This document shows, piece by piece, positions 18,025-63,295 of a stretch of 64,000 nucleotides of DNA. The notes under the pieces were generated by a model, which ran no database searches, was not told where the DNA came from, and was given only the letters and a program-made list of their open reading frames with translations. The DNA comes from Candidatus Tenebribacter davisii. GTDB taxonomy: Bacteria; Cloacimonadota; Cloacimonadia; Cloacimonadales; TCS61. A program made the position numbers and the translations under genes. Where the stretch lies: assembly GCA_030765535.1 (NCBI GenBank), contig JAVCCH010000098.1, forward strand, positions 38,563 to 102,562, in the 5' to 3' direction. Every line of letters begins with the position of its first letter. The stretch's first letter is position 1.

Positions 18025-18027
18025 TTT

Positions 18028-18378: not shown

Positions 18379-18380
18379 TC

Positions 18381-19472: not shown

Positions 19473-19481
19473 GAGTTTGTT

Positions 19482-19880
19482 TTGGTTAATTTAAATGATT
19501 TGATCGGAAAACCTTTTAGTAATGACGGATATGGTCCTGACAGTTATTCTTGTTTTGGGTTAGGTGTTGAAGTTTTTAGACGATATGGGATAACTATAGA
19601 AAGAACTAATATTTCAGTCTGTGCTTGCAAAGAAGTTTCTCAGAAAAAAATACAAGAGCGACTTGCTTTAAATTGGCAATTAACTGATTTAACCGAAAAT
19701 CCTCCAATTGCAGTATTAATTCGTTCTGGTGATGCTCGCTATGCAGATCATATTGGTGTTTATATTGGAAAAGGAAGAATGATTCATATCTTTAAAAAAA
19801 CCAATGTTGTTGTAGAAAGAATTTCTAATTGGAAACATAAAATTATAGGATACTATAAATATGTCAATCACACTTGTTAA
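19482..19880 (+). CDS. NlpC/P60-family tail tip protein (lambda gpK C-terminal domain-like), TTG start
   Basis: Catalytic Cys context DSYSCFGLGVEVF and His context ADHIGVYIGKGRMIH. AGGAG RBS 6 nt before the TTG. Confidence 0.5.
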   Translation: MVNLNDLIGKPFSNDGYGPDSYSCFGLGVEVFRRYGITIERTNISVCACKEVSQKKIQERLALNWQLTDLTENPPIAVLIRSGDARYADHIGVYIGKGRMIHIFKKTNVVVERISNWKHKIIGYYKYVNHTC

Positions 19881-25800: not shown

Positions 25801-28785
25801 ATATCTACATATACGAGGCAATGGACTAATATAACTTCTATGTCGGAGACAACATCTCAAGTAACCTATACGGTTACAGTTGTTGATAAGACTGGTATAG
25901 AAACTGAACATGAAGTAACACAATCATTAAGCCAAAGTCCAAGTGGTGATACTGGTGATAACGCCCAAATAGTAAGAGTAACAGGAAATCAATCATTCAA
26001 GTATTTAGATGGTGCGACTGATCCAACTGAAACTACCATAACCCTAACTGCCACATTATCTGGAGAACTAACCACATATGATTGGGAATACTGGAATGGA
26101 TCATCTTGGACAAACTTATCAGGAACACAAACGTCAGCCACGTACAGTCTTTTGCCCACTAATGCTGCTTGGGGTTCTGATACATCTTTAAGAGTAAGGT
26201 GTTTATCAGGTACTATATTTGATGAAATATCTATAGCGAAATTGTATGATGGAACAAACACAGTTTCAGGATATCTCACCAATCCAAGTAGCCCTTTATC
26301 TGCATTGTATGACGGTACAGGATATAGTTTAACCACGTCTGGTGGAACTTTCAAGGTTTTCAAAGGCATTACTGATGTAACAACGTCAAGTTCATTTGCT
26401 GGAACTACAACCAAGAACGGGTTAACTTTTACAATTAATTCAAGTACTGGTGTATACGTATTAACTGGTGGTTCTTGGACTTCTGATTCAGAAACATTCA
26501 CTGCTACAGCAACTTACGAGGGTACAGTAATCTCGAAAGTTTACACTATCTCTAAAGCAAAAATGGGCGATGATGGAACCAACGGAAAAACTTATGTTCT
26601 AAATATTACAGGAGGATCAAGAACTTTTACTTGGGATTCTGCTGGAACAAGTTATACTCCTGGTCCTGCAACTGCACTAACCGCTGAATTAAGAGAGGAT
26701 GGTGTTGTAGTCGCTCCTACGTATGCGTGGACAACTGGAGGAACTTCCGTTGGGCTAATTTCTGGATCAGGATCTACTTCAGTATTTACTCCTACTGTTA
26801 CAAATACCTGGGATGAAACCAAGGGAACAAACTGGATATCAGTAACTTGTGTTTTCGCTGGACAAACAATAAAACAAACTATTCCAATTTCTTGTTCTAA
26901 GATTGGAAATGTTGGAGTGGATGCTACTAATTGGAGCAGTGACATTGTGTTCACCTCTACTGATCATAATGATATTGCATGGGCAGGACCATCAGGGTCA
27001 ACAGGACGTATAGATAGTGCCGAGGGTTCATATACTGGAATTAGTGGTGGGACCAAATTAGGGATGACAACTGGATATTATGTTTATTTTGATCCAACTT
27101 CCTCAACAATACTTAAAACGACAACAAGCCCTGCAACGGCTGTTGGTATTGGAAATGTTATCCTTGCTTATGCAATTAATAATCCTGATGGTGTTGGAAC
27201 ATTAGCAATTCTTAATGTTTTTGGTGGCACTGGTGGTTCGGTTGTTGCAGCCGATCAAGTTACCGCAAATTCCATTTCAGCCATATCTACAAATGTTGGA
27301 GTACTTATAACTGGAGTGATTCAAAATCCAACAGGCACATTTGTAATAAATTTAACTAATGGAACTATAAATGTGGCAAAAGCAGAAGGACTCACTGTCA
27401 ATGCTTCTGGTGGGTTAATTATTGGGAATGATGGGGATATTATTTTCCAGAACAGTGATGCAATACCTGCTACAGATGGTATACTTGAAAATAAAGACTA
27501 CACAGCACCAGTAGGAACTAAGAAAGTGTATATGGCTTTAAAGGCAGGACCAGACGGAGAAGATTATGTTGAAATTCCTGGGATTGTCTCCATTGTTAAC
27601 CCTCTTGTTACAGCAAGTATTAGACGAGGTCATCCCACAGATGGAGATATCGGTCTTCTGGGAACTCCATATGGTACTGCTTATGTTGAAAATCTTACTA
27701 TAGTTGGAAGTGGGAAAATATTACCAACAACCAATGGATCTTGTTGGATTGGTGATTCTACTCATCGTTTTGATAACGGATATATAAATGACATTCTTAT
27801 AACCACTCTCGATAGTACTGGTACATCTATTTCCCTTGAAGTGGATCTTGTCCCAAATGGCACACTCGACCTTGGATCATCGTCAGCACATTTTGCACTT
27901 GGCTACATTGACACTATTTATTGCAACACCAAAATCTCCACATCTCTTGTACAGTTCGACACTGGAACTGTAACTGGTGTTGACACAATATCAGTTGCAA
28001 AGGACGGTACTTATGATTGGATGGATTTTACAACTGATGATGCTATAATATTATCAGTAGGTAAGAGTGATTCAGGGAATGAAACTGTATATGCTTACAA
28101 CAAACTCCACAGTGTTGGGAACTTGTCTACTGGAGGGGATCTTGATTGTACCGGTACTGCTTCTGCAAATGTAAAAGCTTTTTTAATCGACCATCCCCTT
28201 GATCCTGAAAATAAACTACTCCGGTATTCTTCTATTGAAGGTCCAAAATGTGATCTTATTCATAGAGGAACTGTAAAAATGGTAAATGGATTCGCAACTG
28301 TGGATATAGATGCAGAATATGATCTTACACCGGGAACTTTTGAAGCTTTATGCCAAGATTCTGAAGTTACAAGTTTGATTACCAAAAATTCATTTGAGCG
28401 AGTAAAGTCAACAAGTATATTAGGTTCAGTATTTACAATTGAATCAGAATCAAACGAGTTTAATGGTGATGTTAATTGGGTTGTAATTGGTGAAAGAAAA
28501 GACCCTGCTATTCGGATAGCTGACACTACCGATGAAACAGGGCATTTAATAAACGAGGTTATTAAATCATCTCCTTTAGAAACTGCTCTTGATCCTATTA
28601 CCAAAGAAACAAACAGTATTGAAAAATCTGATGTAATTGAATCCGAAGTTGTTTCTATGCAATCTGCAAAAGGATATTATAGACATCCCACAGCCTATGG
28701 GAAAACAGAACCTACAAGAAACGTAACCTATAAATACAAAGCTAAGAAAGTAACACCTAACCCCAAAGAAGGAGAGAAAACATGA
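19861..28785 (+). CDS. Giant tail tip / host-specificity protein: gpI-like N-terminus fused to a gpJ-like central fibre protein (2974 aa)
   Basis: The N-terminal roughly 150 aa carry a gpI-like hydrophobic Gly/Ala segment. Clear lambda-J-like blocks follow: LPGLLLNSYLSLDPI versus J LKSVLLNSTPVLDTEG, and AWLVWDLICNKAGISKERL...YCDENV versus J AWCLWDMLTHPRYG...YCDQSV. Multiple fibronectin-III-like modules are present (TAPPADISVFAATWNPVTLNVEFSW; TTAPAVPTGLTATSSWASIVLTW). A short collagen-like Gly-X-Y run GDAGVDGTDGTNGTDGSDGIDG lies at about 25210-25290. Confidence 0.7.
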   Translation: MSITLVKIPNPFQPEINKKEYFDFESDRLHTYLKDIPFHHEDINFVVAVNGVFIVGPYQDVIIEDHAIISVTAKVEATGMAASAATATISSSAGATGVITSLATAFEFGGIAGAVAYASVYVLTSFVIGYGMSMLASLLAPDIASEETPKTVYSWALDGVLNQEGINIPLIYGKNRLPGLLLNSYLSLDPIDKTDVTKLIDYLVVTGSDINFVLGAGTEIWDNDAGPNGNRVTSYDTSYLTSTSGIFTSTDFPINDAGDTTTTFIMGVVGSTTNDGSYRCMVDTANKLWVYSRSSGSDFADRGRTLTSEVGTDGMKFLSPPTNDAHDDFLHIQLGLGIGPVDTISDLYIDAQNEENYSDENVSLDYRLGTATQDIMEGFDEVTETASKNEEVLYAEAPLVMTTPGVCDKVNVVVAFPNGVWNLDKTKGGIYKAQVSYSVEYKATTDPDTSYVFKQFQNFDEDGDPYTVLHNYRSFWAASRTEIKHKIVFEDLARDQYDIRVTKLTVDSEVSDIMNTLIFSYVQGVYAEILSYPGLAMYSVAIKASTQFSGGIPQVSVSVDKKTLSIWDKSSTPYWDTTKLATNPAWLVWDLICNKAGISKERLIWEDFKDWADYCDENVADSGDLPEKRFEVNIIISEGNFWDNIQKVAKIGRAAIIRRGYDYGVFIDKWEGTTPVVSHVFNSGNIIEDSFELHYIPSNDRANIIEVEYSDADQEYTRQIVSAFSSDYLDEDKIVRKAVITIDAAISQAQAMREAVYRINSNVLLNKIITFDAFSDSFTCVVGDLFHFQHEDVSYNYQVSGRIVSATQYTVTLDQEVELIAGISYNILIRIGSIAGDNNNIYEKQITNVPGLTSELTLLSAAGWDTIPEKFDLFTFGEVGTYDKIYKITGVTGEVDSVRTITGGEYVPEIFTNNDAEVITDNIRKLKIQKAMSVIVNEFLAYNPDGSFSVHAQVVWSQYFSHISTIWEVWMSSISENANGTSSESDPAKIRTGRSIMSIEVKDILETGITYKFYINVKGQGPYDHGTNTKQITIAGLTAPPADISVFAATWNPVTLNVEFSWTEIGDIDLEYYFIREGVAWLGGDDIVWPLKGNATVNLAIPLTGDLTEKTYWMKGVDTTGNPSAIEAQALVGGLAVPLEIDTTVGTVLNFDGEWDIPTHKVKLTWDAVLLSDGVTLNPHIDRYEIYHGFAWATSVKSGPYPSGDVTEIYFDVEEGTNGNRTYWIRAVDTAGNYADIAGTPPVPHSSKVVAIDTSLSNGMVPVGLTATSDSIINEDGTNSAILIVSCTAMNLVTYPEFLKYSIEITNKTESPLKPVIYEYPLDVNTFTFPAIPNTSYGIRIRSVDIRGNFFDWSTEFPITSAYDTTAPAVPTGLTATSSWASIVLTWTITDVADLSHFVIYRRTVNSSPGSAYVIGQIAKSISGTASMYIDSPPTSDSYYYWVRSVDRTGNTSTYSASAIGQTGTINSMDNTLASVIAMEDDQVLSVTEKSAWRTQWVSLESAYDVLIAFAASLSVSSTTFAGLYTTLHEYLRDDLHVWDQQTVSHSITGTALTSKTTAYFDEFTTLTNACNEEAKVSTTLSSLTNDSCTVTTYADGSGGTYSTGNTTTTMQIFTGTTLQTGWSFSKVEGSGLNATLGSSSGICVITSLTDATDESYVTITASKSGYSNQTSTFTISKSKTGAEGTPLVNRWLTSSVGAIGKSEAGDYNPTTITFYAWTQTGEDAPTAFTGGMRVYENTTLKDYGGVPSITRTPSPTGVDSVTCKLYTTTSYSVLLDTEGVPVVFDGDAGVDGTDGTNGTDGSDGIDGRTVNITATDYSIEYNIHGNTPNPSTIPITATKHNSTGDAYYNFEVDGVTKQHTTSNTYTYSCPSSISGDPQKITVELREDGTGTSLLATDETTIAKLQEASGATTITLSNPAHTMYTDFGGANLDVSGSGNDIKVWIGTTPIPYDGTSSYATPSFRISTAVTTGLVIDSPSTISTYTRQWTNITSMSETTSQVTYTVTVVDKTGIETEHEVTQSLSQSPSGDTGDNAQIVRVTGNQSFKYLDGATDPTETTITLTATLSGELTTYDWEYWNGSSWTNLSGTQTSATYSLLPTNAAWGSDTSLRVRCLSGTIFDEISIAKLYDGTNTVSGYLTNPSSPLSALYDGTGYSLTTSGGTFKVFKGITDVTTSSSFAGTTTKNGLTFTINSSTGVYVLTGGSWTSDSETFTATATYEGTVISKVYTISKAKMGDDGTNGKTYVLNITGGSRTFTWDSAGTSYTPGPATALTAELREDGVVVAPTYAWTTGGTSVGLISGSGSTSVFTPTVTNTWDETKGTNWISVTCVFAGQTIKQTIPISCSKIGNVGVDATNWSSDIVFTSTDHNDIAWAGPSGSTGRIDSAEGSYTGISGGTKLGMTTGYYVYFDPTSSTILKTTTSPATAVGIGNVILAYAINNPDGVGTLAILNVFGGTGGSVVAADQVTANSISAISTNVGVLITGVIQNPTGTFVINLTNGTINVAKAEGLTVNASGGLIIGNDGDIIFQNSDAIPATDGILENKDYTAPVGTKKVYMALKAGPDGEDYVEIPGIVSIVNPLVTASIRRGHPTDGDIGLLGTPYGTAYVENLTIVGSGKILPTTNGSCWIGDSTHRFDNGYINDILITTLDSTGTSISLEVDLVPNGTLDLGSSSAHFALGYIDTIYCNTKISTSLVQFDTGTVTGVDTISVAKDGTYDWMDFTTDDAIILSVGKSDSGNETVYAYNKLHSVGNLSTGGDLDCTGTASANVKAFLIDHPLDPENKLLRYSSIEGPKCDLIHRGTVKMVNGFATVDIDAEYDLTPGTFEALCQDSEVTSLITKNSFERVKSTSILGSVFTIESESNEFNGDVNWVVIGERKDPAIRIADTTDETGHLINEVIKSSPLETALDPITKETNSIEKSDVIESEVVSMQSAKGYYRHPTAYGKTEPTRNVTYKYKAKKVTPNPKEGEKT

Positions 28786-48405: not shown

Positions 48406-49323
48406 TCAGATAGTCTCCATAATATTATTTATAATATCTCTTACATCTTGTTTAGGATTTGCATGAGCTATAACAGAACTTAGAATAGTTTTGAAATTAG
48501 GCTTATCTACTTGATTCTTTGGAAGCATACTAATAAATTCTGCAATCTTTGCCTCTGCCTCTTTCTTTGCTTCATCTTTTAATTCCGTAACTGCAATTTT
48601 ATTAAAGTCAAAAACATCCTCCGCAGGAAGACATGGAATCTTAATTGATTTTGATGTCCAATCATCACTATCAATCAAATGAACTCTTGGTTGAAATCCT
48701 ATTTGAGATTTTGTTGATCTTGGAACGGCTCCACAGTTTATTTGTAATTTCTTATTCTGTAGTCTAAGTACATGAGGAGCATGATTATCTCCACTGAGGA
48801 TACATTTTGCCCAGGGATACTTACGTAAAATTGCGTGTGCAGTGCTGTAATTTGTTTGTCCTGACCAAAGTTCACCTTTCTTTGTTATCATCAAATGCAT
48901 CAATAATACATCAGCTTCCACTGAAGGTTTTTCATTCCAACCACAACCCATAAAAGTAACTCCATTTATCTCAGTGATAGAATCAGGTTTGAGAATTTCA
49001 ACAGCTTTTGCCGTTTCAAGAATACCTAAAGGAGTATTTTTTAATCCCCCTGTGTGGTAATGGAGGTCATGCTGTCCAGGTACTGCCAATATTCTTACGT
49101 CATTATATTTTTGTACCAGTGATAGCACCCTGTTAGTAACTTCGTATTTAACTTTCGCAGAATTAAAGAAGTCACCAGCAACTACAATAACTTTTGAATC
49201 AGTTTTCATTGCTGTTTTTAGAATAAATTCAAACTTATTCATTATCTGCCCAAAATAGTCACCTTTTCGGTTTGTCGGACATCTATCTGTAATATGAATA
49301 TCTGCTGCTCCAATGAATTTCAT
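48406..49323 (-). CDS. SbcD/Mre11-like nuclease (calcineurin-like phosphoesterase), about 305 aa
   Basis: Motifs GAADIHIT, VVAGDFFN, VPGQHDLHY and SGDNHAPH. Start MKFIG overlaps the upstream stop (ATGA). Confidence 0.6.
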   Translation of the reverse strand: MKFIGAADIHITDRCPTNRKGDYFGQIMNKFEFILKTAMKTDSKVIVVAGDFFNSAKVKYEVTNRVLSLVQKYNDVRILAVPGQHDLHYHTGGLKNTPLGILETAKAVEILKPDSITEINGVTFMGCGWNEKPSVEADVLLMHLMITKKGELWSGQTNYSTAHAILRKYPWAKCILSGDNHAPHVLRLQNKKLQINCGAVPRSTKSQIGFQPRVHLIDSDDWTSKSIKIPCLPAEDVFDFNKIAVTELKDEAKKEAEAKIAEFISMLPKNQVDKPNFKTILSSVIAHANPKQDVRDIINNIMETI

Positions 49324-50414
49324 AATCCACTCCTTCCACACACAGGACACTCTGTTTCTGCCCTGATTTTATCGTGTTGTTTTATGGCTTCATTCACTTC
49401 TTTAGTAGCTATTTTATGTTGTTCTTCATTTCTTTTAATTTTTACCAAAAGATCTCGGACAATTTCAATTTGTTCATTGTATTTATTGATAAATATCTTT
49501 TGCTTCTGTAGTGCTTTTAACGCTGTTAGAGCTTCAACAGTATCACTACTATCAGAAAGCTTTAAATCAACAAGTTTGATAGCTTCAACAGTGTTTTGAA
49601 TGATAGCTCTTTGATCTTCCTTGTTGCTAAGAGCTTCGCTTTGATCACAAAGACGTACAAGAGCTATTTTGGCTATACCAATATCATCGAACTCTTTCAA
49701 TTTTTCGTCAATATTTTTAATGAGTCTTATATTTTCAGATAATTCTTGGAACTCAATTTTTTTATGTTCTGCTTTGTGCATAAACTGTTCTAATTTCTTG
49801 GCAAACTTCTCTGCCTTCAGTACCCATTCAGTTTCTTTGAGTTCTTTTTGACGATCTTCAATTCCTTTTTTATGCACACCTATCTCAGCATTACATGATC
49901 TGACCTGTGAATTAATACTTTTTATTGCATCATCCATTATAGTCAGTCCAGCAACTTTGTTAAATTGCTTTGCTACCTGTCCTGGCTTATCTGCCAGTAG
50001 GAAGTATTGTTCTGTGGGATGCTGTCCCTGAATGTTGACTTCCTTCATTCTGGTTATTTCTTGTACTTCATCAGGAACATCAGTTTTCAAAGCTCTAAGA
50101 GGTTCTTGATTATCTATTTGATAATGATTTATACCCCCAGCATAACCATCTCTTGCTCTTGTTACAGTCCCAGAATCTTTATATTTGATTATGACTTCAG
50201 TGGCTTTTAATTTATCCTCTTTCTTTTTGGGATCAAGTTTATCATCTCTGTAACTATCACCTTGAGGACGATTCTGGGCATTCCATTTTATCTGTCTGAT
50301 TAAACCAGATTTACCTTCATCACTCGCACCAATTAAAATATTCACACCTTCATGTAATTCTATGTGCATATCTTGGTGTGTTTCAAAATATTTACTTTCA
50401 ATAGAATCAATCAT
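49320..50414 (-). CDS. SbcC/Rad50-like ATPase, N-terminal half (Walker A and coiled coil, ending at the zinc hook CPVCG)
   Basis: Walker A ILIGASDEGKSGLI. Long coiled coil. The C-terminus is ...ETECPVCGRSGL, a CxxC hook motif. Confidence 0.6.
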   Translation of the reverse strand: MIDSIESKYFETHQDMHIELHEGVNILIGASDEGKSGLIRQIKWNAQNRPQGDSYRDDKLDPKKKEDKLKATEVIIKYKDSGTVTRARDGYAGGINHYQIDNQEPLRALKTDVPDEVQEITRMKEVNIQGQHPTEQYFLLADKPGQVAKQFNKVAGLTIMDDAIKSINSQVRSCNAEIGVHKKGIEDRQKELKETEWVLKAEKFAKKLEQFMHKAEHKKIEFQELSENIRLIKNIDEKLKEFDDIGIAKIALVRLCDQSEALSNKEDQRAIIQNTVEAIKLVDLKLSDSSDTVEALTALKALQKQKIFINKYNEQIEIVRDLLVKIKRNEEQHKIATKEVNEAIKQHDKIRAETECPVCGRSGL

Positions 50415-50956
50415 TATTGAATATTCTCCTTTACATAGTTATATGCAGGGCTATCACAACAAACCCATCCAACACATTGCTCTGCTGCAAGTCTTGCACA
50501 AACAGCATTATCAAAATCAACATATCTATCAAGATGTATAGTTTTCTGATTTATTTTTATTTTTGATTCCCATTTATTTCTGCTCTTACAATAATAAACT
50601 CCTTTAATGCCTGATGTATTATGTTTAAAATTTCCTGTATTTTGTAAATTACGTTTGTGTGTTAATTCTCTTAGATTACAAATACGGTTATCGTTTTTAA
50701 TTCTGTTTATATGATCAATATCATTTTTAGGTAAATACCCATAAAAACCTATCCAAATAATTTGATGTGCATAAAATCTTGAATTACCTATACCAACTCT
50801 TAAATAACCATTACAAGAATCTTTTATTATATCCCCAATTTTTATACGTGGACAATTTGGGCATTTCCATCTGAGAACTCCTGTTTTTTTATTATATGAA
50901 AATAATTTCCTAACTTCTTTTTGTGTTGGGGTTACTTTTTTTAATTTCTGCATCAA
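50414..50956 (-). CDS. HNH homing endonuclease with C-terminal AP2 DNA-binding domain (copy 1)
   Basis: HNH motif DIDHINRIKNDNRICNLRELTHKRN. AP2-like segment SGIKGVYYCKSRNKWESKIKINQKTIHLDRYVDFDNAVCARLAAEQ. Confidence 0.7.
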   Translation of the reverse strand: MMQKLKKVTPTQKEVRKLFSYNKKTGVLRWKCPNCPRIKIGDIIKDSCNGYLRVGIGNSRFYAHQIIWIGFYGYLPKNDIDHINRIKNDNRICNLRELTHKRNLQNTGNFKHNTSGIKGVYYCKSRNKWESKIKINQKTIHLDRYVDFDNAVCARLAAEQCVGWVCCDSPAYNYVKENIQ

Positions 50957-51068
50957 TCATTCTCCTAATTATTGCCGACAGACTTCTTTCTTCTTCTGTT
51001 GCAATCTTTTTAATGTACTTTAGTTGTTCATCTGATAGTCTTATTCCCAATGTTTTTTTCATTTTCAT
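50931..51068 (-). CDS. Small ribbon-helix-helix (RHH) protein overlapping the start of HNH copy 1
   Basis: MKMKKTLGIRLSDEQLKYIKKIATEEERSLSAIIRRMIDAEIKK is a beta-strand plus two helices, the CopG/Arc pattern. Not in the ORF track (under 60 aa). Confidence 0.45.
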
Positions 51069-51106
51069 ATCCTATTTTAGCATAATTTGTTTAACAATGC
51101 AACACA

Positions 51107-51532
51107 TTAAATATAGTTAAGTTCTACATCTGCGTCAACAAACATTTTTTCAGTTATTTTAATTTTATCACCCCATCTTTTAAATTGTTCTACATTGGCA
51201 TAACAAGTTACAACCCGTATTATTCCAGATTGAATTATTGCAGAAGCACATTGAGAACATGGTGGCATAGGTCATACATAAAGAGTAAACCCAGTAAGAT
51301 CTTCTTTACTAAAAAGAATTGCATTTAATTCCCCATGGATTACTTTTGCATATTTATTTTGTCTGTTATTAAGATCATCATCAGGTATGCCTTTAGGATA
51401 ACCATTAAATCCAAGAGATACAATTCTCTTATTGTCAGTGATAACAGATCCAACTTTAGTTGATGGATCTTTTGACCAGAATGCAATATGTTCTGCTAAT
51501 TTTATAAATCTATTATCCCATTTATCATTCAT
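51107..51532 (-). pseudogene. dCMP deaminase with an in-frame TGA at 51269-51271 (pseudogene or recoded/readthrough)
   Basis: N-terminal part WDNRFIKLAEHIAFWSKDPSTKVGSVITDNKRIVSLGFNGYPKG...HGELNAILF...TLYV, then TGA, then PMPPCSQCASAIIQSGIIRVV. The HxE and PCxxC zinc motifs lie on either side of the stop. The ORF-track entry 51272..51532 is the upstream part. Confidence 0.55.
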
Positions 51533-51666
51533 AGTATATATCCAGTAGCAAGAATCCTTTTATCTTTAACGGCAATAGCTCCAATTTGTCTTCTGAGACA
51601 GGAGCTTTTAGTGGCAACAACTTTTGTGATACTGAAGAAATATTCATCCCAGGAAAGCTTACTCAT
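51532..51666 (-). CDS. 44-aa fragment duplicating the dCMP deaminase N-terminus
   Basis: [43 protein letters not shown] with its own AAGGA RBS. The stop overlaps the ATG of the full gene. Confidence 0.4.
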
Positions 51667-51772
51667 TTTTTAGTTTCCTTTATAATAAAGTGGACAGGTT
51701 TTATACTGCCATTCTTACTGGGAAGAACCTGAGCAACCCCCAGATCAGTCGGAAGCGATCCGACATCATTCA

Positions 51773-52630
51773 TTATTTGAACATTTTGATTTGTGCTCCA
51801 ATTGATGTCATACCCTCTACAGGCATAAACACAGCAGCTTTATTCTCTGACATTTTTTCAAGAACTTCTAATCTCCTGAGTTCAATTAGTGCTGGAGTAA
51901 CGCCTTCCCCAATTATCTTATTCTTATCCCTGATTGCCTTAGCTTTTGTGATCTCAATTTGATAATCAGCTTCAGCCAGCAATAGCTCATTTTTCTTTTT
52001 GGTCATATCAATCAATGCTTGATTTTCTTCCTTTTCTATTGACATCTGCCGCTCTTTGGACATATTCACAGCATCAGTAACAACTTTAGGGTAAGCTATT
52101 TCCCCGAGAGCAATATCAGAAATTTCAAGAGGGGTATTTATTAAAACCTTTGTCAATGATGCCTTTATCTCCCCTGATAATCTTGCATAGTTTTTATGCA
52201 CATCTTCAACATTGTATTTACTAAGAATCTCACGGGCTTTATTACGTACAGCCATTCGTCCATACACATTATAAACTTCCATGAACTGCACAATCTTATC
52301 ATCACCTGGAGTAATATCATTAAACATGGAATTGATTACATCCTGAGATCCAGCAATTCTCCCCCTGAATTTGACATGGGCAGTAATGGTAAGTTTGTCC
52401 TGCAAAATCACCTTAACACTTTCGGAATAAGTAGCTGTATTTGTCTGCAATAGTACCAATTCATCCCGACCCCATAAAGTGTATTTTCCAGGGACCAAAA
52501 CATCAAGGCTGTATCCACTTGTGGTAAGAATCTTCCCTTTCGCAGTAGGTGGAACAGTTTCCCATCCACATGAATACATTGCCATTAACAATAGCAGGAA
52601 TACGATGGATAATAAATTAATTTTCTTCAT
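51773..52630 (-). CDS. SPFH/band-7 (stomatin/prohibitin-like) domain lipoprotein
   Basis: Signal peptide MKKINLLSIVFLLLLMAMYSC. The central region has SPFH-like character. A C-terminal coiled-coil segment EKEENQALIDMTKKKNELLLAEADYQIEITKAKAIRDKN follows. Confidence 0.45.
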   Translation of the reverse strand: MKKINLLSIVFLLLLMAMYSCGWETVPPTAKGKILTTSGYSLDVLVPGKYTLWGRDELVLLQTNTATYSESVKVILQDKLTITAHVKFRGRIAGSQDVINSMFNDITPGDDKIVQFMEVYNVYGRMAVRNKAREILSKYNVEDVHKNYARLSGEIKASLTKVLINTPLEISDIALGEIAYPKVVTDAVNMSKERQMSIEKEENQALIDMTKKKNELLLAEADYQIEITKAKAIRDKNKIIGEGVTPALIELRRLEVLEKMSENKAAVFMPVEGMTSIGAQIKMFK

Positions 52631-52925
52631 TGTTGAAACTCCTTTTTGAGTCTGATTTAAGTTCTGCCATATCAATGGCTTGTTGTTTTTTAAATGTTAA
52701 TTTCTGCACCACAACCCTTTCTGGCAATGCTGTATTGATCGTACTTGACCTCCTTTCAATTTTTGATATTCCCTCTTGTTTGAAACGTATTGGATTAACT
52801 AAAAATAAAATAGCCATTATAATGATAAGCATAATTCTTACTTCATTATTTTTTACTTTATAGGTAGCAAATATAAGAAAGGCTCCTACAACAACCTGAA
52901 TTAATTGAACAGTTTGAATTTCCAT
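52617..52925 (-). CDS. Small two-TM membrane protein directly upstream of the SPFH gene (NfeD-like partner candidate)
   Basis: Two hydrophobic helices followed by a short soluble tail. The pairing with an SPFH gene is the basis for the NfeD-like idea. Confidence 0.3.
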   Translation of the reverse strand: MEIQTVQLIQVVVGAFLIFATYKVKNNEVRIMLIIIMAILFLVNPIRFKQEGISKIERRSSTINTALPERVVVQKLTFKKQQAIDMAELKSDSKRSFNNEEN

Positions 52926-56167: not shown

Positions 56168-56740
56168 TTACCCCTTTTTAAAATCTGGTTCAATACCGAA
56201 TTCTGAAAACAGTCTTTCAAGCCCTGTCGTCATTCTCTTATCTTTATCTTTGATCACTCCTCTTTTGGTTTTCTTTTGCTTATAAATCAAGACAGGAGGG
56301 ATTTTCTTATTGGGATATTTCTCTTTGAATGCCTTTACCAATTTGTTAATGCTGGATTTCATTAACTTTTTATCTTTAGGCTTTTCATTAGGATGGAGAT
56401 AGTTCAGGTGTGTCATGGGAGGCTCCTCAATAAAGTCAGCTAAGTTTCTTAAAAAATCAGGAAGGGTAATATCTTTTTCTTTATGGAGTCCGGTCCTGAT
56501 ATATGCATTGGTTACTTTACCTTCAAGTGCGTTTGCAAATCGGTTGATTACTCCCCTTAATAATCCGGCCTCTTCTGGATGTCCAAGATTTCTGGCATTA
56601 TTGCTGTGATTGTGGTCAACTACCATTTCAGATTCAGGGAATTTTATCTTTAAAACAGGACAAATATGATTTTGTTTTTTATGGAAATGTTTTCTGATCT
56701 TTGCTAATTCATCCTGTTTGATTTGTCGTTGCTTTTTCAA
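56168..56740 (-). CDS. Endonuclease VII-like (His-Me finger) protein with degenerate zinc ligands
   Basis: ICPVLK...MVVDHNHSNNARNLGHPEEAGLLRGVINRFANALEGK versus T4 endo VII CLICQ...LDHDHELNGPKAGKVRGLLCNLCNAAEGQ. The HN(H) core and RG..N..EG are kept. The second Cys pair is replaced (VINRFAN) and the first pair is incomplete (ICPV). Confidence 0.45.
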   Translation of the reverse strand: MKKQRQIKQDELAKIRKHFHKKQNHICPVLKIKFPESEMVVDHNHSNNARNLGHPEEAGLLRGVINRFANALEGKVTNAYIRTGLHKEKDITLPDFLRNLADFIEEPPMTHLNYLHPNEKPKDKKLMKSSINKLVKAFKEKYPNKKIPPVLIYKQKKTKRGVIKDKDKRMTTGLERLFSEFGIEPDFKKG

Positions 56741-57462: not shown

Positions 57463-58089
57463 TTATTCATTCAATTCTATGACTTCCTCAGATTTAATTT
57501 TCTTCAGTACATCTTTTGATGATCCTACGGCAATACTGATTTTTCTGACATGATTCTTTACATATTGATAAGCAGGACTACACGAATCACAACCTTCCCA
57601 ATTTAAACATTGTTCTACTGCAAGACGGCAACAAACAGCATCATCAAAATCTTTGAAAGTTCCTAAATTTTTTGTTTTTTGATTTATAGCAATCATAGCT
57701 GTCCAATATCTATCTCTTTTAGAAAAAGTGACTCCCTTAACTCCACTTTTATTATCCTTTCTATTTCCTGCATTTTTAATATTACATGATCTGGAAACTT
57801 CCCTAAGATTACTAATCCGATTATTATGCTTTACTCTATCAATATGATCAATATCATTTTCCGGAAAATAACAATAAACATAAAACCAAGCAAGTCTATG
57901 AGCTTTGTACTGTGTTGTATTAACACGTATAGCAATATACCCTTCAGAATTTTTATACCCTGCAATTTCTCCAATCTTAACACTTTGATTATTAGAAATT
58001 TTTCTTATAAAAATTCCTGTTAATGGATCATAATCAAGTTGCCTTACCAATTCTTCGTGAGTCAATTTTTCTTTTTCTAAGTGATTCAT
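57463..58089 (-). CDS. HNH-AP2 homing endonuclease (copy 3)
   Basis: DIDHIDRVKHNNRISNLREVSRSCN plus SGVKGVTFSKRDRYWTAMIAINQKTKNLGTFKDFDDAVCCRLAVEQ. N-terminus is about 70% identical to copy 2. Confidence 0.7.
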   Translation of the reverse strand: MNHLEKEKLTHEELVRQLDYDPLTGIFIRKISNNQSVKIGEIAGYKNSEGYIAIRVNTTQYKAHRLAWFYVYCYFPENDIDHIDRVKHNNRISNLREVSRSCNIKNAGNRKDNKSGVKGVTFSKRDRYWTAMIAINQKTKNLGTFKDFDDAVCCRLAVEQCLNWEGCDSCSPAYQYVKNHVRKISIAVGSSKDVLKKIKSEEVIELNE

Positions 58090-59232: not shown

Positions 59233-59820
59233 TCAATCATCCCATTCCGAATCATCCCATTCGTCAGCATCGCCAGCATCGCCAGAACCTTCTTCACCAT
59301 CTTCTTCAAACAGAGCATCAATTACAGCGGCCCGGAAATCATCAATCTTTTTGAAATCTTTTGGATTGAGTTCCAGTTCTTCTTCAGCAATCAGAGCAAC
59401 AAGCTCCGCTTTTTTCATTTTTTTGATGTCATCTTCCGTGAGTTCATCACCTTCTCCATCTTCAGTTCCGTTGTCAAGTTCTCCAGCATCGGGACCATCA
59501 TCTACAATTTCCTCTTCCTCATCTGTTTCAACGATTTCCTCTTCCCCGTCACCAACAAGACGATCAAACAGTTCGTCAAGTTTTGTTTCCAAGATGTCAT
59601 AGATCTGATCAGCAAGAACCATGGGATCATTACCCTCTTTTACATTTTCAGAAAGAGAAATAGAAGCTTTCTCTTTACCGAAATCAGAGGAGATGCCGAT
59701 GGATACTGTCAATCGCCTGTCTTTCAGAAATATCGCTTCAATTGCAGTTTCTACTGTGGGTGATACTGTTGTACCTGTTGCTGTGTCTGCTTTTTTTACT
59801 ACTTTTTTACGAATAGCCAT
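59233..59820 (-). CDS. Acidic protein (195 aa; C-terminal half Asp/Glu-rich)
   Basis: DEEEIVDDGPDAGELDNGTEDGEGDELTEDD...DEWDDSEWDD. Confidence 0.35.
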   Translation of the reverse strand: MAIRKKVVKKADTATGTTVSPTVETAIEAIFLKDRRLTVSIGISSDFGKEKASISLSENVKEGNDPMVLADQIYDILETKLDELFDRLVGDGEEEIVETDEEEEIVDDGPDAGELDNGTEDGEGDELTEDDIKKMKKAELVALIAEEELELNPKDFKKIDDFRAAVIDALFEEDGEEGSGDAGDADEWDDSEWDD

Positions 59821-59858
59821 TTATAATTCTCCAGTTAAATGTTATTGATTGATAAACC

Positions 59859-62279
59859 CTAATATTTCCTCTTTCTCTGGGGCTTTAATTTGCCTATGAC
59901 ATTATCATAAGTTTCCTGACAGAGAGCAAATAATTCTTCCTCTCTGTTGTTATCTTCAATATCAGCAATTAATTGTTTCATGGATGGATTAATCCATTTA
60001 TCTTCATCGGATTTCTTTTTCTTTGGTGCTAATACTGTTAAAAATCCTTTTGTATTAATTGCTTTGGCAGTTCCAGTCCAGACACCTTCTTCCACAATGA
60101 ATATGATACAAGATGTTAAATTATCTACACCGTAATCAAATAGAATGGGGAAGTAAGCTTCTCCATGTCTGCCTGTCAATTTGTTCTTTGTAATTTTGGC
60201 TTGAACATTTGTAATCACTGTTCTTTTACCTTTTTTCTCTCGCTTTTGACAAGCTAACCAAATTTCATGTGCTGCATAAAATTTAAGAGCTTTACCTCCA
60301 GATCTTACTTTCGGAGTAAACTTTGCCCCGAATCCTATATTATCTCTTGTCTGTGAAATAACAATTAATAATGAACCATGATCATTTAGATCCTGTGTCC
60401 GTTGGGAAAACATTTCTGATGCTTTTTTTGCCTTACCATCTCCGAAACTTCCGGTTGTTTCATTATCTTTTTCTCTTTTCTTCCTGTTTTCTGAATCTTT
60501 TTTCATAGCAGCTTCAGAGGTCAATCCATCAAATGAATCAAGAACATAGATGAATGGTTCATCTTCCTTCAAAGCTCTTGCAAGATTATCATTTAAATCT
60601 TCAATTGTTTTAGAACGAATATCCTTTTCAATTCTATCAAAGACCATCTCACCAAAAAGATAAGCAATATCAAATTCGTCAGCGGCTTCAACGTCATCAA
60701 AGATGAATCGAAAGTTATTGAATCTTTTTTCCAATGTACACTCTGCAAAAACAGTTAATGCAAATAAAGTATTATGACTCACAAACCCATTGCTCCAAAA
60801 TAGGTGAGTATTTGGTATATGAACATCGTAAACAACTGTTTCTTTTTCTATATGTTTAACTTCTTTTATTGCATCAAAACAATATCCTGAATTTTGTATT
60901 TGTCTGTATAGGGATAAATCAATTGGTAATTCAGAAAATGTTTTAATAAATTCATTAATTAATCTTTTTGACCCATTTTTTACATTTGCAAATTTGAATC
61001 TTGGAAAAATTCCATCGTAATATCTACATCTACCATTTTTTGCCCATCCTAACTTTCTCCTAAGTTTGTTTATGTCCTCTTTCATTTTATTTGCTAAGTT
61101 TGGAACAGAATCATAATCACTATTTCGATATTCACTTTTTACTGGAATATTATATTTTAAACTTCCTATTTGTTCTCTATAAATATTTAATTCATTACCA
61201 TAAAAAGCAACAGCCCAATACTTATGATCATGAAATTTTACTCCGTCAAAAGCACCATCCTTAAATGATAGTGTAGATATAATTCCAAAATTTAGCAACA
61301 TTAAATGAACTTGGTTTGCTAATTGTTTGGATGTCGAAAAGTATGTTATTTCTTTATCAGATCCTCCGCTATCACAGTCAAACAAAGCTCTTAAAAATGC
61401 AGCTTGAATTGATTTCGGTGATTGAAGAATACAATCAGGTACATATTTATATCTTGCTGTAAAATTATCAAGATTAAATATTTTTGAGATTATCATTTGA
61501 AGATGCTTACTTGATATTCCGTTTAAGTTTAAATGTAACCCGAGATTATCACTAATAACTTCTAAATCTTTTCTAATATACTTTTTTGTATTTGAAATAT
61601 GGACTTGATTTTTGGATATGTTTCCATCCGCAACAATATATCCTAATAATCTTGCAAAATTTTCATCTACATGTTCTGGAATGTTTGCTTGTTTTACATT
61701 AGTTCCTTTAACAATAATTTTTGGCAATTTAAATAAATTTAAAGGGAAACAGTTTGTGGAACGAGCTATTATAGCACAATCACCTTGTTTTATATCTTTC
61801 AATTTTTTCATTTCAAATTGAAAATTGTTATTGAAAATCATAATAGGGTGATCTTTTGTTCCTTCTATTGAATATCCTTTATTTGTTTTAATTTTTATTG
61901 TTTTTGCAACTTCTTCTTTCCAAAAATGTGATGTTGTGTCAGAGATTCCTTTTGAAGTTGCCAATTTTTGTTTATACATTGAAGTCCCAAAATCAAAAGA
62001 TTTGCCGATAGAATCAATATATTCCATTCCGTTTTCTGTTAAAATATAGGAATCCCTAACACATTTCCCTGCATGAGAATCACCAATTAAATTGATTAAC
62101 TTGCCGAATTTAAATGCGCCTTCAATTCTACCAGAACATTCAAGATTAAAAGTTATTGACCCAGTAGGTACTAATTTTTCTGGATCGACTTCTTTAGATT
62201 TTATTACTTTCTTTTTCAATGAATCTTTGAAATCCTTTTTAATCTTTTTAATCCTACTTATCTTTTTGAGTTTAGACAT
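59859..62279 (-). CDS. RecA/UvsX-like recombinase precursor with a 431-aa LAGLIDADG intein in the P-loop
   Basis: Extein (375 aa): ...GKLINLIGDSHAGK|TLFALTV... gives Walker A GDSHAGKT once spliced. LIVISQTRDNIGFGAKFTPKVRSGGKALKFYAAHEIWL resembles RecA loop-2 and downstream blocks. Intein: CVRDSYILTENG..., LAGLIDADG motifs LLGYIVADGN and FLRALFDCDSGGS, end VHIPNTHLFWSNGFVSHN|T. Confidence 0.65.
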   Translation of the reverse strand: MSKLKKISRIKKIKKDFKDSLKKKVIKSKEVDPEKLVPTGSITFNLECSGRIEGAFKFGKLINLIGDSHAGKCVRDSYILTENGMEYIDSIGKSFDFGTSMYKQKLATSKGISDTTSHFWKEEVAKTIKIKTNKGYSIEGTKDHPIMIFNNNFQFEMKKLKDIKQGDCAIIARSTNCFPLNLFKLPKIIVKGTNVKQANIPEHVDENFARLLGYIVADGNISKNQVHISNTKKYIRKDLEVISDNLGLHLNLNGISSKHLQMIISKIFNLDNFTARYKYVPDCILQSPKSIQAAFLRALFDCDSGGSDKEITYFSTSKQLANQVHLMLLNFGIISTLSFKDGAFDGVKFHDHKYWAVAFYGNELNIYREQIGSLKYNIPVKSEYRNSDYDSVPNLANKMKEDINKLRRKLGWAKNGRCRYYDGIFPRFKFANVKNGSKRLINEFIKTFSELPIDLSLYRQIQNSGYCFDAIKEVKHIEKETVVYDVHIPNTHLFWSNGFVSHNTLFALTVFAECTLEKRFNNFRFIFDDVEAADEFDIAYLFGEMVFDRIEKDIRSKTIEDLNDNLARALKEDEPFIYVLDSFDGLTSEAAMKKDSENRKKREKDNETTGSFGDGKAKKASEMFSQRTQDLNDHGSLLIVISQTRDNIGFGAKFTPKVRSGGKALKFYAAHEIWLACQKREKKGKRTVITNVQAKITKNKLTGRHGEAYFPILFDYGVDNLTSCIIFIVEEGVWTGTAKAINTKGFLTVLAPKKKKSDEDKWINPSMKQLIADIEDNNREEELFALCQETYDNVIGKLKPQRKRKY
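60771..62063 (-). mobile_element. LAGLIDADG-type intein within the recombinase gene
   Basis: Cys1 codon at 62063-62061, terminal Asn codon at 60773-60771, +1 Thr. Confidence 0.65.
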
Positions 62280-62282
62280 AAT

Positions 62283-63251
62283 TTACCTTTTACGGCGTTT
62301 TCTTTTCACAGTAGTTCCGTCAGAACCGGATGGTTTTGTTCTGTCAGCAGGACGTTTTCTTTTAGGAGGAGTGGGTGTGTCCTCTTCCTTGTCATCACCG
62401 AAACCAGAATCATCAATATCCGTACTCTCATCATCAGCCCAAGGATTATCTTCTGCATCTCCTGGACCATCAGGCTCATCCAGCAGTTTCATCTTTTTCA
62501 ATGTGCCACGGAATTCTTTTTCAATTTCTGCATAATCAGGGTGCATATTTACGATGCTATCCAAGGGGAATGTAAGATCAAGAATTTTATTTGGGATTGG
62601 TGAGTCTCTTTCAACTAAACGATGGCCGAGATGAGTTGTATTTGTCATACTGGCACCCTTACGAGTCCAGGCAAGAGATCTCCCTGAATCAGGATCAGAG
62701 AATTTTACGAACCCACCACCTTTTGGCAGTTTGGCAATTGCTTCAATATTTGCTTCCATAAAGAAATGTGAAGCTTCATGAATCTGAATGCCTTTCCTCT
62801 CTTCTTCCCTGTTATCATGAACCCACAGAAAATAAACAACCCGATGTTTTGCTACGAGGTTTTTCCAGTCATCTTTGTCAAGCTTGTTTGCTTTCATGAA
62901 TTCACAGATAGGACAAGGTTCACCAAAGTTTTCATGCGGACAAACATAAGGTTTGAGCATTTCCCCTACATTTGTATGGACAAATAAGTCCAGAACATAA
63001 TCCAAATTACCTTCTTCCGTTACCGGCTGAAGCCGTTCATCAAAAGGCATATCAGGACCAGCTTCAAAGGGAATGATATCAACAATATGTTCTCCCTCTT
63101 TACATTTCCAGAACTCAACTCCTTCGGGAACTTTGTCCTTATTGAAGATGGTTGGAAATCTTCCCCCACCTGTTGATTTAGTGCCTTGATTGTGCCTTTT
63201 TCCAAGGCTTTTACTACCGCCGCTTTTCGCCATCCTATCTCTGAAACCCAT
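62283..63251 (-). CDS. T4 gp32-like zinc-binding ssDNA-binding protein with acidic region and unusual basic C-terminal tail
   Basis: His-13...CPHENFGEPCPIC reproduces gp32 zinc-ligand spacing (H-13-C-9/10-C-2-C). Acidic DEPDGPGDAEDNPWADDESTDIDDSGFGDD. Terminal KRKRPADRTKPSGSDGTTVKRKRRKR. Confidence 0.55.
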   Translation of the reverse strand: MGFRDRMAKSGGSKSLGKRHNQGTKSTGGGRFPTIFNKDKVPEGVEFWKCKEGEHIVDIIPFEAGPDMPFDERLQPVTEEGNLDYVLDLFVHTNVGEMLKPYVCPHENFGEPCPICEFMKANKLDKDDWKNLVAKHRVVYFLWVHDNREEERKGIQIHEASHFFMEANIEAIAKLPKGGGFVKFSDPDSGRSLAWTRKGASMTNTTHLGHRLVERDSPIPNKILDLTFPLDSIVNMHPDYAEIEKEFRGTLKKMKLLDEPDGPGDAEDNPWADDESTDIDDSGFGDDKEEDTPTPPKRKRPADRTKPSGSDGTTVKRKRRKR

Positions 63252-63295
63252 GCTCTTTCTCCTAATTTACTGTTTGCCTTAATTGGGCGATGCCC

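What the first reader, a model, noticed from the sequence alone, without database searches (positions are those of the whole stretch)
59859..62279. LAGLIDADG intein inserted in the P-loop of a UvsX/RecA-like recombinase
The Walker A reads GDSHAGK|C...HN|TLFAL, so splicing restores GDSHAGKT. The 431-aa intein carries both LAGLIDADG motifs (LLGYIVADG, FLRALFDCDSGGS). This is the second intein in the window, after terL, each with a different endonuclease class. It indicates heavy selfish-element load on essential genes.
Basis: partly seen in the sequence, partly recalled or inferred. Interest (0 to 1): 0.55.

Follow-up and report, generated by a model that had tools for sequence, protein, structure and literature searches.

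The report
LAGLIDADG intein splitting a phage RecA P-loop
A phage recombinase gene of the RecA family is interrupted, exactly inside its ATP-binding loop, by a self-splicing protein element (intein) that carries its own homing nuclease; it is real, but it is a textbook insertion at a site already described for RecA and RadA.

Summary
ORF 59859..62279 (-) encodes an 806-aa precursor. Residues 73-503 (431 aa, window 60771..62063) are a canonical class-1 intein holding a two-motif LAGLIDADG endonuclease. It sits between Lys and Thr of the Walker A motif, GDSHAGK|T.

Removing it gives a 375-aa protein. That protein aligns without a gap across the junction with the 120 best metagenomic homologues (55-75% identical, all intein-free). 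It matches Pfam RecA, and its predicted structure matches bacterial RecA.

The extein is a divergent phage RecA/UvsX-family recombinase. It is not a bacterial RecA orthologue and not Sak4.

The same intein at the same site occurs in related uncultured phages (L028, L039/L042; 60-66% identical). It also occurs in all 8 fetched RecA-like precursors from the exhaustive search, and more distantly in GenBank phages Cyrano and fHSPT3. Within this phage clade its distribution is patchy, as expected for a homing element.

The site is the published RecA/RadA "insertion point c", a classic P-loop Lys|Thr insertion.

The side claim about terL is only partly supported. terL does carry a Hint-type insert, but I could not identify any endonuclease class in it.

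Verdict: a new member of a known kind, of low interest.

The parts
59859..62279 (-). Whole precursor gene: 806 codons plus a stop at 59859..59861. It encodes a RecA-family recombinase interrupted by an intein.
   Evidence: ORF listing and translation. Pfam finds Intein_splicing, LAGLIDADG_3 and RecA on the same ORF.
62064..62279 (-). N-extein, aa 1-72. It ends with the first seven Walker A residues, GDSHAGK (62064..62084).
   Evidence: It aligns with the N-termini of intein-less homologues up to GK.
60771..62063 (-). Intein, precursor aa 73-503 (431 aa). It consists of an N-terminal Hint part, a LAGLIDADG endonuclease, a helical extra region and a C-terminal Hint part.
   Evidence: Pfam PF14890 E=8e-19 and PF14528 E=1e-18. 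TIGR01445 and TIGR01443 both score above cut-off. The AlphaFold2 model has pLDDT 88.8 and pTM 0.90. Foldseek matches 7qss with E=2e-28 and TM 0.70.
62046..62063 (-). Block A, CVRDSY. Cys1 (62061..62063) is the first nucleophile.
   Evidence: Cys1 is nearly invariant in the alignment of relatives.
61845..61862 (-). Block B, GTKDHP (intein T69 and H72; the TxxH motif).
   Evidence: T69 is invariant and H72 nearly invariant in alignment A3.
61620..61649 (-). First LAGLIDADG motif, LLGYIVADGN. The predicted catalytic Asp is in ADG.
   Evidence: The motif is identical in the three divergent allelic inteins.
61359..61397 (-). Second LAGLIDADG motif, FLRALFDCDSGGS. The predicted catalytic Asp is in CDS.
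   Evidence: The DCD core is invariant in the allelic inteins, and Pfam reports a second LAGLIDADG_3 stretch.
60771..60836 (-). Blocks F and G, VVYDVHIPNTHLFWSNGFVSHN. They end with the penultimate His and the terminal Asn (60771..60773).
   Evidence: D413, H420, N425, G426, H430 and N431 are nearly invariant. TIGR01443 matches at aa 483-504.
59862..60770 (-). C-extein, aa 504-806. It starts with Thr+1 (60768..60770), which completes Walker A as GDSHAGKT. It also holds the catalytic-Glu region DDVEAADEF (60672..60698), Walker B FIYVLDSF (60531..60554) and the L2 region ISQTRDNIGFG (60327..60359).
   Evidence: Pfam RecA matches aa 607-718 of the precursor.

Best explanation
The gene encodes a phage RecA-family recombinase whose ATP-binding P-loop is split by a canonical class-1 intein carrying a LAGLIDADG homing endonuclease.

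Proposed splicing mechanism (chemistry inferred from established intein biochemistry; residues shown in the sequence):
1. The 806-aa precursor cannot bind or hydrolyse ATP properly, because 431 residues separate GDSHAGK from the Thr that completes Walker A.
2. Cys1 (aa 73) undergoes an N-to-S acyl shift.
3. The Thr+1 hydroxyl (aa 504) attacks the resulting thioester.
4. The terminal Asn (aa 503) cyclises, assisted by the penultimate His. This releases the 431-aa intein.
5. An O-to-N shift leaves a normal peptide bond. The product is a 375-aa recombinase with an intact GDSHAGKT.

Proposed homing mechanism (inferred):
- The freed intein, or its endonuclease domain, is predicted to cut the uninterrupted recA allele of a co-infecting related phage.
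- The cut would fall at the roughly 20-40 bp site spanning ...GGTGATTCTCATGCAGGGAAA^ACTTTATTTGCATTAACT...
- Recombinational repair would then copy the intein in.

This accounts for the intein's patchy distribution among close relatives.
For: Boundaries and motifs:
- Exact boundaries and all splicing blocks are present: Cys1, TxxH, block F Asp/His, His-Asn, Thr+1.
- Family models match: Pfam PF14890 at 68.3 bits (cut-off 35.8), PF14528 E=1e-18 with two stretches, and TIGR01445 and TIGR01443 above cut-off.

Precise excision restores the host protein:
- The 120 best homologues (55-75% identical, 276-397 aa) are all intein-less. They align gap-free across GK|T.

Extein identity:
- Pfam RecA E=2.5e-15, PHROG 97 E=1e-39.
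- PDB RecA sequences at about 1e-14, with Walker A, the catalytic Glu and L2 aligned.
- AlphaFold2 model (pLDDT 78.9) whose Foldseek top 50 hits are all RecA.

Intein structure:
- AlphaFold2 model (pLDDT 88.8, pTM 0.90) matches endonuclease-bearing inteins TliVMA (E=2e-28, TM 0.70), PhoVMA, PI-PfuI, PI-PkoII and PI-SceI, and the free-standing LAGLIDADG endonuclease I-DmoI.

Allelic inteins at the same site:
- Present in syntenic phage contigs L028 and L039/L042, 60-66% identical.
- The endonuclease domain is as conserved as the Hint domain. Three-way invariant fractions are 0.52 against 0.53-0.62, and both motif Asp residues are invariant.

Patchy distribution:
- 3 of 80 IMG/VR loci carry it. 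They sit at three separate places in the extein tree, each next to intein-less sisters.

Broader occurrence and literature:
- All 8 top representatives fetched from the exhaustive search are precursors with the same K|C...HN|T junction. The five of them that were spliced and scanned all match Pfam RecA.
- GenBank phages Cyrano and fHSPT3 carry a P-loop intein in RecA.
- The literature describes the site: RecA/RadA 'insertion point c' in the P-loop (PMC4513877), and the 'classic' insertion between the invariant Lys and the nucleophilic Thr (PMC5050341).
Against: - Nothing here demonstrates splicing or DNA cleavage. Both are inferred from conserved residues and folds.
- The second motif reads D-C-D-S rather than the commoner D-x-D-G.
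- The sequences are too diverged to show recent homing. No co-conversion signature appears next to the junction. Intein divergence (60-66% identity) tracks extein divergence (64-70%). That pattern fits long vertical residence with repeated loss as well as it fits repeated gain.
- The lower GC3 of the intein (15.8% against 23.9% for the extein) is seen in the window and in L039 but not in L028. It is therefore weak evidence of foreign origin.
Confidence: 0.88

Rival explanations
1. The intein still splices but its endonuclease is dead or nearly so. The element would then be a vertically inherited passenger, kept because imprecise loss would destroy an important gene. It would no longer be an active homing element.
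For: - Intein divergence parallels extein divergence.
- There is no co-conversion tract near the junction.
- The second motif has Ser where Gly is usual.
- Degenerate relatives exist. P0127 has lost most of the endonuclease domain, and P0124 lacks the extra region and has mutated motif residues (ADV in motif 1, SCNS in motif 2).
Against: - Both LAGLIDADG motifs and their acidic residues are invariant across three alleles that are only 60-66% identical.
- The endonuclease domain is as conserved as the splicing domain, which argues for purifying selection on nuclease function.
- The distribution among close relatives is patchy.
Confidence: 0.25
2. The insertion is a decayed, non-splicing remnant, and the gene is a recombinase pseudogene.
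For: No direct evidence. The only point in its favour is that splicing was not tested.
Against: - The 806-codon frame is intact.
- Every catalytic splicing residue is present.
- The extein keeps the family's invariant Walker A, Walker B, Glu and L2 residues.
- Orthologous precursors of the same architecture are kept intact in other phages.
Confidence: 0.04
3. The intein has been co-opted as a conditional switch, as proposed for Pyrococcus horikoshii RadA. Splicing, and so recombinase activity and ATP use, would be gated by redox state, temperature or infection stage. This does not exclude the main explanation.
For: - The insertion point is the same as in Pho RadA, where native exteins control splicing (PMC4513877; PMC5790916).
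- The intein holds several cysteines in addition to Cys1, visible directly in the sequence.
Against: - There is no evidence specific to this protein.
- The closest relatives do well without the intein: 120 of the 120 best homologues lack it. Regulation by it is therefore dispensable.
Confidence: 0.1

Closest known systems
RecA/RadA P-loop inteins at 'insertion point c' (c1: Pyrococcus horikoshii RadA mini-intein; c2: bacterial RecA, including the E. coli RecA intein of Topilina et al. 2015, PMC4513877)
   Same: - The host superfamily is the same (RecA/RadA recombinases).
- The position is the same, at the end of the Walker A loop.
- It is a class-1 intein.
- The Pho RadA intein is among the sequence and structure hits of this intein's Hint part (2lqm E=7e-9).
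   Different: - Pho RadA is a mini-intein without an endonuclease, whereas this one has a full LAGLIDADG domain plus an extra helical region.
- The host here is a divergent phage RecA, not a cellular RecA or RadA.
- Sequence identity to the solved inteins is low (about 20-26%).
Archaeal V-ATPase subunit A inteins with endonuclease (TliVMA 7qss, PhoVMA 7qst) and PI-PfuI / PI-PkoII / PI-SceI
   Same: These are the best structural matches over the whole intein. TliVMA gives E=2e-28 and TM 0.70. The architecture is the same: Hint, then a two-motif LAGLIDADG domain, then Hint.
   Different: The host proteins and organisms are different, and identity is only 10-22%. They are structural analogues within the family, not close relatives.
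Intein-containing RecA of GenBank phages: Escherichia phage Cyrano (CYRAN_55) and Bacillus phage fHSPT3 (SP3_00093); PHROG 9666
   Same: - These are phage RecA genes with an intein of about 420 aa at the identical K|C...HN|(T/S) Walker A position.
- Cyrano also shares a neighbouring gp32-like SSB and a stomatin/Band_7 gene.
- The 779-position phrog_9666 profile matches both the intein and the C-extein.
   Different: - Intein identity is only 23-26%.
- Over the whole precursor, tblastn identity to these RecA genes is only 23-25%. The best extein match in any cultured phage is 34%, to Vibrio phage RecA.
- Those records annotate the gene simply as RecA or hypothetical, without an intein feature.
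Classic P-loop (Lys|Thr) inteins of other ATPases: TerL1-a in mycobacteriophages, DnaB-b, MCM-a, RFC-a, PhoH (PMC5050341, PMC4760082)
   Same: - The insertion logic is the same, between the invariant Lys and the nucleophilic Thr or Ser.
- Relatives of this very intein (25-38% identical) sit at that position in an IstB-like ATPase (P0125/P0126), in PhoH (P0128) and in a clamp-loader-like AAA+ protein of a related phage (L037).
   Different: The host proteins are different. The window copy is in RecA.
Mycobacterium tuberculosis and M. leprae RecA inteins
   Same: They are LAGLIDADG-type inteins in a RecA recombinase.
   Different: - They use different insertion points. The M. leprae intein is in the L2 loop (PMC3239194).
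- Sites a, b and d lie at the monomer-monomer interface, not in the P-loop (PMC4513877).
- The NCBIfam 'intein-containing recombinase RecA' model matches only the extein part here.

Membership tests
Canonical (class 1) intein | Hint-fold splicing domain, in N- and C-terminal parts flanking an insert | tested here: met
   Pfam PF14890 scores 68.3 bits against a cut-off of 35.8. TIGR01445 scores 34.4 against 24.5, and TIGR01443 scores 22.9 against 15.6. The AlphaFold2 model (pLDDT 88.8) matches solved inteins.
Canonical (class 1) intein | Cys or Ser at intein position 1, and a TxxH block B | tested here: met
   Cys73 of the precursor, and GTKDHP with T69 and H72. These are conserved among relatives.
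Canonical (class 1) intein | C-terminal His-Asn followed by Cys, Ser or Thr at +1 | tested here: met
   ...NGFVSHN|T. Thr+1 is the Walker A Thr.
Canonical (class 1) intein | In-frame insertion whose exact removal restores a contiguous, conserved host protein | tested here: met
   The spliced 375-aa protein aligns without a gap at the junction with 62 intein-less homologues. The 120 best hits are all 276-397 aa.
Canonical (class 1) intein | Autocatalytic protein splicing | not testable with these tools
   This needs expression and detection of ligated exteins and free intein.
LAGLIDADG homing endonuclease (monomeric, two-motif) | Two LAGLIDADG motifs, each with a terminal acidic residue | tested here: met
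   LLGYIVADG and LRALFDCDS. Pfam PF14528 reports two stretches, E=1e-18. Both Asp residues are invariant in the three allelic inteins.
LAGLIDADG homing endonuclease (monomeric, two-motif) | The LAGLIDADG fold | tested here: met
   Foldseek matches PI-PfuI 1dq3 (4e-19), PI-PkoII 2cw7 (1e-17), PI-SceI, and free-standing I-DmoI (about 3e-5).
LAGLIDADG homing endonuclease (monomeric, two-motif) | Sporadic presence or absence among closely related host genes (homing-cycle pattern) | tested here: met
   3 of 80 related loci carry it. They fall at three separate tree positions, each with intein-less sisters. The nearest intein-less allele is 79% identical.
LAGLIDADG homing endonuclease (monomeric, two-motif) | Site-specific cleavage of the intein-less allele | not testable with these tools
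   This needs an in vitro cleavage assay on the restored junction.
RecA/UvsX-family recombinase (extein) | RecA-type core ATPase with Walker A, catalytic Glu, Walker B and the L2 region | tested here: met
   Pfam RecA scores 57.1 bits against a cut-off of 27 over aa 10-287. The alignment to E. coli RecA pairs GDSHAGKT with GPESSGKT, DDVEAADE with IDAEHALD and ISQTRDNIG with INQIRMKIG. The Foldseek top 50 are all RecA.
Bacterial RecA proper (NCBIfam TIGR02012 equivalog) | Score above the equivalog cut-off | tested here: not met
   It scores 68.7 bits against a cut-off of 325.3. It belongs to the family but is not an orthologue of cellular RecA.
T4-type UvsX | Closer to UvsX than to RecA | tested here: inconclusive
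   PHROG 97 'UvsX-like recombinase' gives E=1e-39. In the PDB, however, RecA sequences (4e-14) score better than phage UvsX 9gbg (5e-11), and no UvsX appears in the Foldseek top 50.
Sak4 (short core-only RecA/RadA-like phage ATPase) | Short single-domain protein matching Sak4-type models | tested here: not met
   The protein is 375 aa, with an N-terminal helix and a C-terminal domain in addition to the core. No Sak4-named family appears among its Pfam or PHROG hits.
RecA/RadA intein insertion point c (Topilina et al. 2015) | [quoted passage not shown] | tested here: met
   The junction is GDSHAGK|T. The Walker A assignment comes from the alignment to E. coli RecA. The site definition is from PMC4513877.

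The most novel reading that the evidence does not exclude
One clade of LAGLIDADG inteins may be moving between the P-loops of non-homologous ATPases within a single lineage of large uncultured siphovirus-like phages. Relatives are seen in RecA here, in a clamp-loader-like AAA+ protein in L037 and L001, and in IstB-like and PhoH proteins elsewhere. That would make this phage group a natural system for studying ectopic intein transposition. Alternatively, or in addition, the RecA copy may act as a conditional switch of phage recombinase activity, as in Pho RadA.
Probability: 0.12. Interest if true: 0.45.

Novelty: new member of a known kind. Interest (0 to 1): 0.15.

Why it matters
The main value is for annotation. 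The gene should be called an intein-containing RecA-family recombinase precursor, with mature product join(aa 1-72, 504-806). It should not be treated as an 806-aa fusion or a hypothetical protein. GenBank relatives such as Cyrano and fHSPT3 lack this annotation.

The finding adds a well-defined, apparently intact intein and LAGLIDADG endonuclease with a predictable target of about 40 bp. It also adds a set of allelic and empty-site sequences. These could serve intein engineering, or a study of how P-loop inteins spread among phages.

It does not change what is known about inteins or recombinases.

Tried and rejected
- Megablast of window 57000-64000 against 50,697 phage records gave no match, so no close cultured relative exists.
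- An exact-sequence look-up of the precursor found nothing on record.
- Scanning IMG/VR with peptide patterns taken from the intein alone found nothing. The allelic inteins turned up only when I scanned with the extein alignment and looked for matches that began at residue 73.
- The word-indexed search with the intein found only 15 relatives, at most 44% identical. The exhaustive search found far more: 140 hits below 1e-30, the best 53% identical.
- I looked for a co-conversion tract, meaning junction-proximal extein more similar among intein-bearing alleles. There is none.
- I looked for a third intein in the window, using an HMM of the intein family and phmmer with both inserts against all six-frame ORFs. 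There is none, and the recA and terL inserts are unrelated in sequence.
- I tried to name the endonuclease in the terL insert with Pfam at E<=1, PHROGs and PDB sequences. Only Hint-type matches appeared.
- I considered Sak4 and bacterial RecA orthology for the extein and rejected both.
- I considered low intein GC3 as proof of recent import. I rejected it as proof because L028 does not show the pattern.
Full report
**Observation.** The minus-strand ORF 59859..62279 is real and encodes 806 residues. It reads ...LINLIGDSHAGK|CVRDSYILTENG...HLFWSNGFVSHN|TLFALTVFAEC... The segment from Cys73 to Asn503 is exactly 431 aa (window 60771..62063).

**Is it an intein?**
- Pfam finds Intein_splicing (E=8e-19, 68.3 bits, cut-off 35.8) and LAGLIDADG_3 (E=1e-18, two stretches) on the 431-aa segment.
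- NCBIfam's intein N-terminal and C-terminal domain models both score above their curated cut-offs.
- All splicing residues of a class-1 intein are present and conserved among relatives. These are Cys1, block B TxxH (T69, H72), block F Asp and His (VYDVHIPNTH), the penultimate His, the terminal Asn, and Thr at +1.
- An AlphaFold2 model built on 12 sequences is confident (pLDDT 88.8, pTM 0.90).
- Its best PDB matches are endonuclease-bearing inteins: TliVMA (7qss; E=2e-28, TM 0.70), PhoVMA, PI-PfuI, PI-PkoII and PI-SceI.
- Mini-inteins, including Pho RadA, match the Hint part. I-DmoI matches the LAGLIDADG part.

**Does removal restore a host protein?**
- Joining aa 1-72 to aa 504-806 gives a 375-aa protein.
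- Searched against 5.8 billion proteins, its 120 best hits (55-75% identical) are all 276-397 aa long, which means they are intein-free.
- In alignments of 13 and of 63 sequences there is no gap at the junction. The homologues read GDSHAGKTLFALT or close variants.
- At the DNA level, the empty site of relative L001 is AATCTTATTGGTGACTCACACGCTGGTAAA^ACATTGTTTGCTTTAACA. This is collinear with the two window flanks.

**What is the host protein?**
- The spliced protein matches Pfam RecA over aa 10-287 (E=2.5e-15) and PHROG 97 'UvsX-like recombinase' (E=1e-39).
- Against PDB sequences the best hits are RecA (about 4e-14), with a phage UvsX at 5e-11. The alignment pairs Walker A, the catalytic-Glu segment and the L2 region with those of E. 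coli RecA.
- A model of the spliced protein (pLDDT 78.9) gives RecA for all top 50 Foldseek hits.
- It scores 68.7 bits on the bacterial RecA equivalog, far below the 325.3 cut-off. In cultured phages the best match is only 34% identical, to Vibrio phage RecA.
- It is therefore a divergent phage RecA/UvsX-family recombinase. It is not a cellular RecA orthologue and not a short Sak4-type protein. RecA versus UvsX subfamily is not resolved.
- The neighbours fit a recombination and replication module. Upstream is a weak gp32-like SSB. Downstream are a conserved very acidic protein, a 5'-3' exonuclease, a free-standing HNH endonuclease and an endonuclease VII-like gene.
- The rest of the window is a large siphovirus-like structural module.

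**Relatives of the intein.**
- Scanning IMG/VR with the extein alignment returned 80 related loci. In three of them (L028, and the near-identical pair L039 and L042) the match began exactly at residue 73.
- Those loci encode 800- and 808-aa precursors with an intein at the identical GDSHAGK|C...SHN|T site and the same flanking genes.
- These inteins are 65.6% and 60.4% identical to the window's intein. The corresponding exteins are 70.5% and 64.1% identical.
- In a neighbour-joining tree of exteins, the intein-bearing alleles fall at three separate places. Each sits next to intein-less sisters, and the window's nearest sisters (L009 and L010, 79% identical) lack the intein.
- The endonuclease domain is as conserved as the splicing domain across the three alleles. 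Both motif Asp residues are invariant. This argues that the nuclease is under selection.
- An exhaustive phmmer search of 1.84 billion representatives found 140 hits below 1e-30. The top-ranked ones are about 760-870 aa long, with the intein starting near residue 55-70.
- All eight that I fetched have the same K|C...HN|T junction. The five whose spliced sequences I scanned all match Pfam RecA.
- More distant relatives (25-38% identical) occupy the equivalent Lys|Thr or Lys|Ser position of other ATPases. These are an IstB-like ATPase, PhoH, and a clamp-loader-like AAA+ gene of a related phage.
- In GenBank, Escherichia phage Cyrano and Bacillus phage fHSPT3 have a 422-aa intein at the same Walker A position. 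Both genes are annotated only as RecA. PHROG 9666 appears to be a family of such precursors.

**Comparison with the literature.**
- Topilina et al. 2015 (PMC4513877) catalogue RecA/RadA intein sites a to e. They place 'insertion point c' in the P-loop, shared by archaeal RadA (c1, including the Pho RadA mini-intein) and bacterial RecA (c2).
- Kelley et al. [quoted passage not shown]
- Novikova et al. 2016 (PMC4760082) document the P-loop as an intein hot spot.
- The window's element is therefore a new member of a known kind, at a known site.

**Mechanism.**
- Shown here: the residues and folds required for splicing and for LAGLIDADG catalysis, the exact restoration of Walker A, and a patchy distribution.
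- Inferred from established intein and homing-endonuclease biochemistry: the four-step splicing pathway and homing. The splicing steps are an N-S shift at Cys1, attack by Thr+1, Asn cyclisation and an O-N shift. Homing would proceed by cleavage of the empty site in a co-infecting relative, followed by recombinational repair.
- Not shown: any activity.
- There is no sign of recent transfer. No co-conversion tract was found, and intein divergence tracks extein divergence. Ancient presence with repeated precise loss cannot be separated from repeated gain.
- The intein is more AT-rich at third codon positions than its extein (15.8% against 23.9%). The only other gene measured with a similar value is the free-standing HNH gene (16.7%). 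The contrast between intein and extein is absent in L028.

**The side claim about terL.**
- terL (3320..5677) contains a 297-aa insert (aa 460-756; window 4697..5587).
- It begins CFVAGT, has a TFDHP block, and ends VLVSN|T just before the conserved TDGEDHCMDSARY nuclease motif.
- It gives only sub-threshold Hint-type matches: Intein_splicing at 25.4 bits, Hint_2, a bacterial intein-like domain in the PDB, and PHROG 30251.
- No endonuclease family is detectable in its middle region.
- 'A second intein' is therefore plausible. 'A different endonuclease class' is unverified.
- No third intein was found in the window.

**Verdict.** The feature is ordinary for phage and archaeal P-loop ATPases. 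Its value lies in annotation and as a possible reagent, so interest is low.

Noticed in passing
window 3320..5677 (+); insert at 4697..5587: terL carries a 297-aa Hint-type insert. It has Cys1 and a TFDHP block B, ends VLVSN|T without a penultimate His, and sits immediately before the C-terminal nuclease motif TDGEDHCMDSARY. Its middle region of about 190 aa matches no endonuclease family. The Hint matches are below Pfam's gathering score.
   Followed up: partly
window 57463..58089 (-): A free-standing HNH endonuclease gene (PHROG 99, E=1e-59) lies just downstream of the 5'-3' exonuclease gene. Its GC3 is 16.7%, as AT-rich as the recA intein (15.8%) and lower than every other gene measured. 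In relative L001 an HNH gene sits between two 5'-3' exonuclease ORFs.
   Followed up: partly
L037 3960..6272; L001 6186..8405: Related phages carry an intein in the P-loop of a clamp-loader-like AAA+ gene. The L037 copy is about 35% identical to the recA intein, with junction GNSGCGK|C...NHN|S. The L001 copy was seen only as Pfam domain calls and its junction was not read. By synteny with L001, that gene would lie just beyond the right end of the window.
   Followed up: partly
window 62283..63251 (-) and 59233..59820 (-): Two conserved partners flank recA. One is a 322-aa protein with a weak gp32-like SSB match (PHROG 1192, E=1.3e-4) and a Cys/His cluster, CPHENFGEPCPIC. The other is a 195-aa extremely acidic protein with no family assignment. 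Both are syntenic in L028 and L039.
   Followed up: partly
window 13156..28785 (+), 48406..52675 (-): The window looks like part of a large siphovirus-like phage. It has a 1622-aa tape-measure protein, a 2974-aa GpJ-like tip protein, an SbcCD-like nuclease pair and a Band_7/stomatin-like protein. The gp32-like SSB and Band_7/stomatin genes recall the RecA neighbourhood of the 108-kb Escherichia phage Cyrano, but there is no nucleotide-level match to any phage record.
   Followed up: partly
window 56168..56740 (-): This is an endonuclease VII-like or HNH-like ORF (PHROG 423, E=5e-26; Pfam Endonuclease_7 just below cut-off). It may be another mobile nuclease, or the phage's Holliday-junction resolvase.
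   Followed up: no
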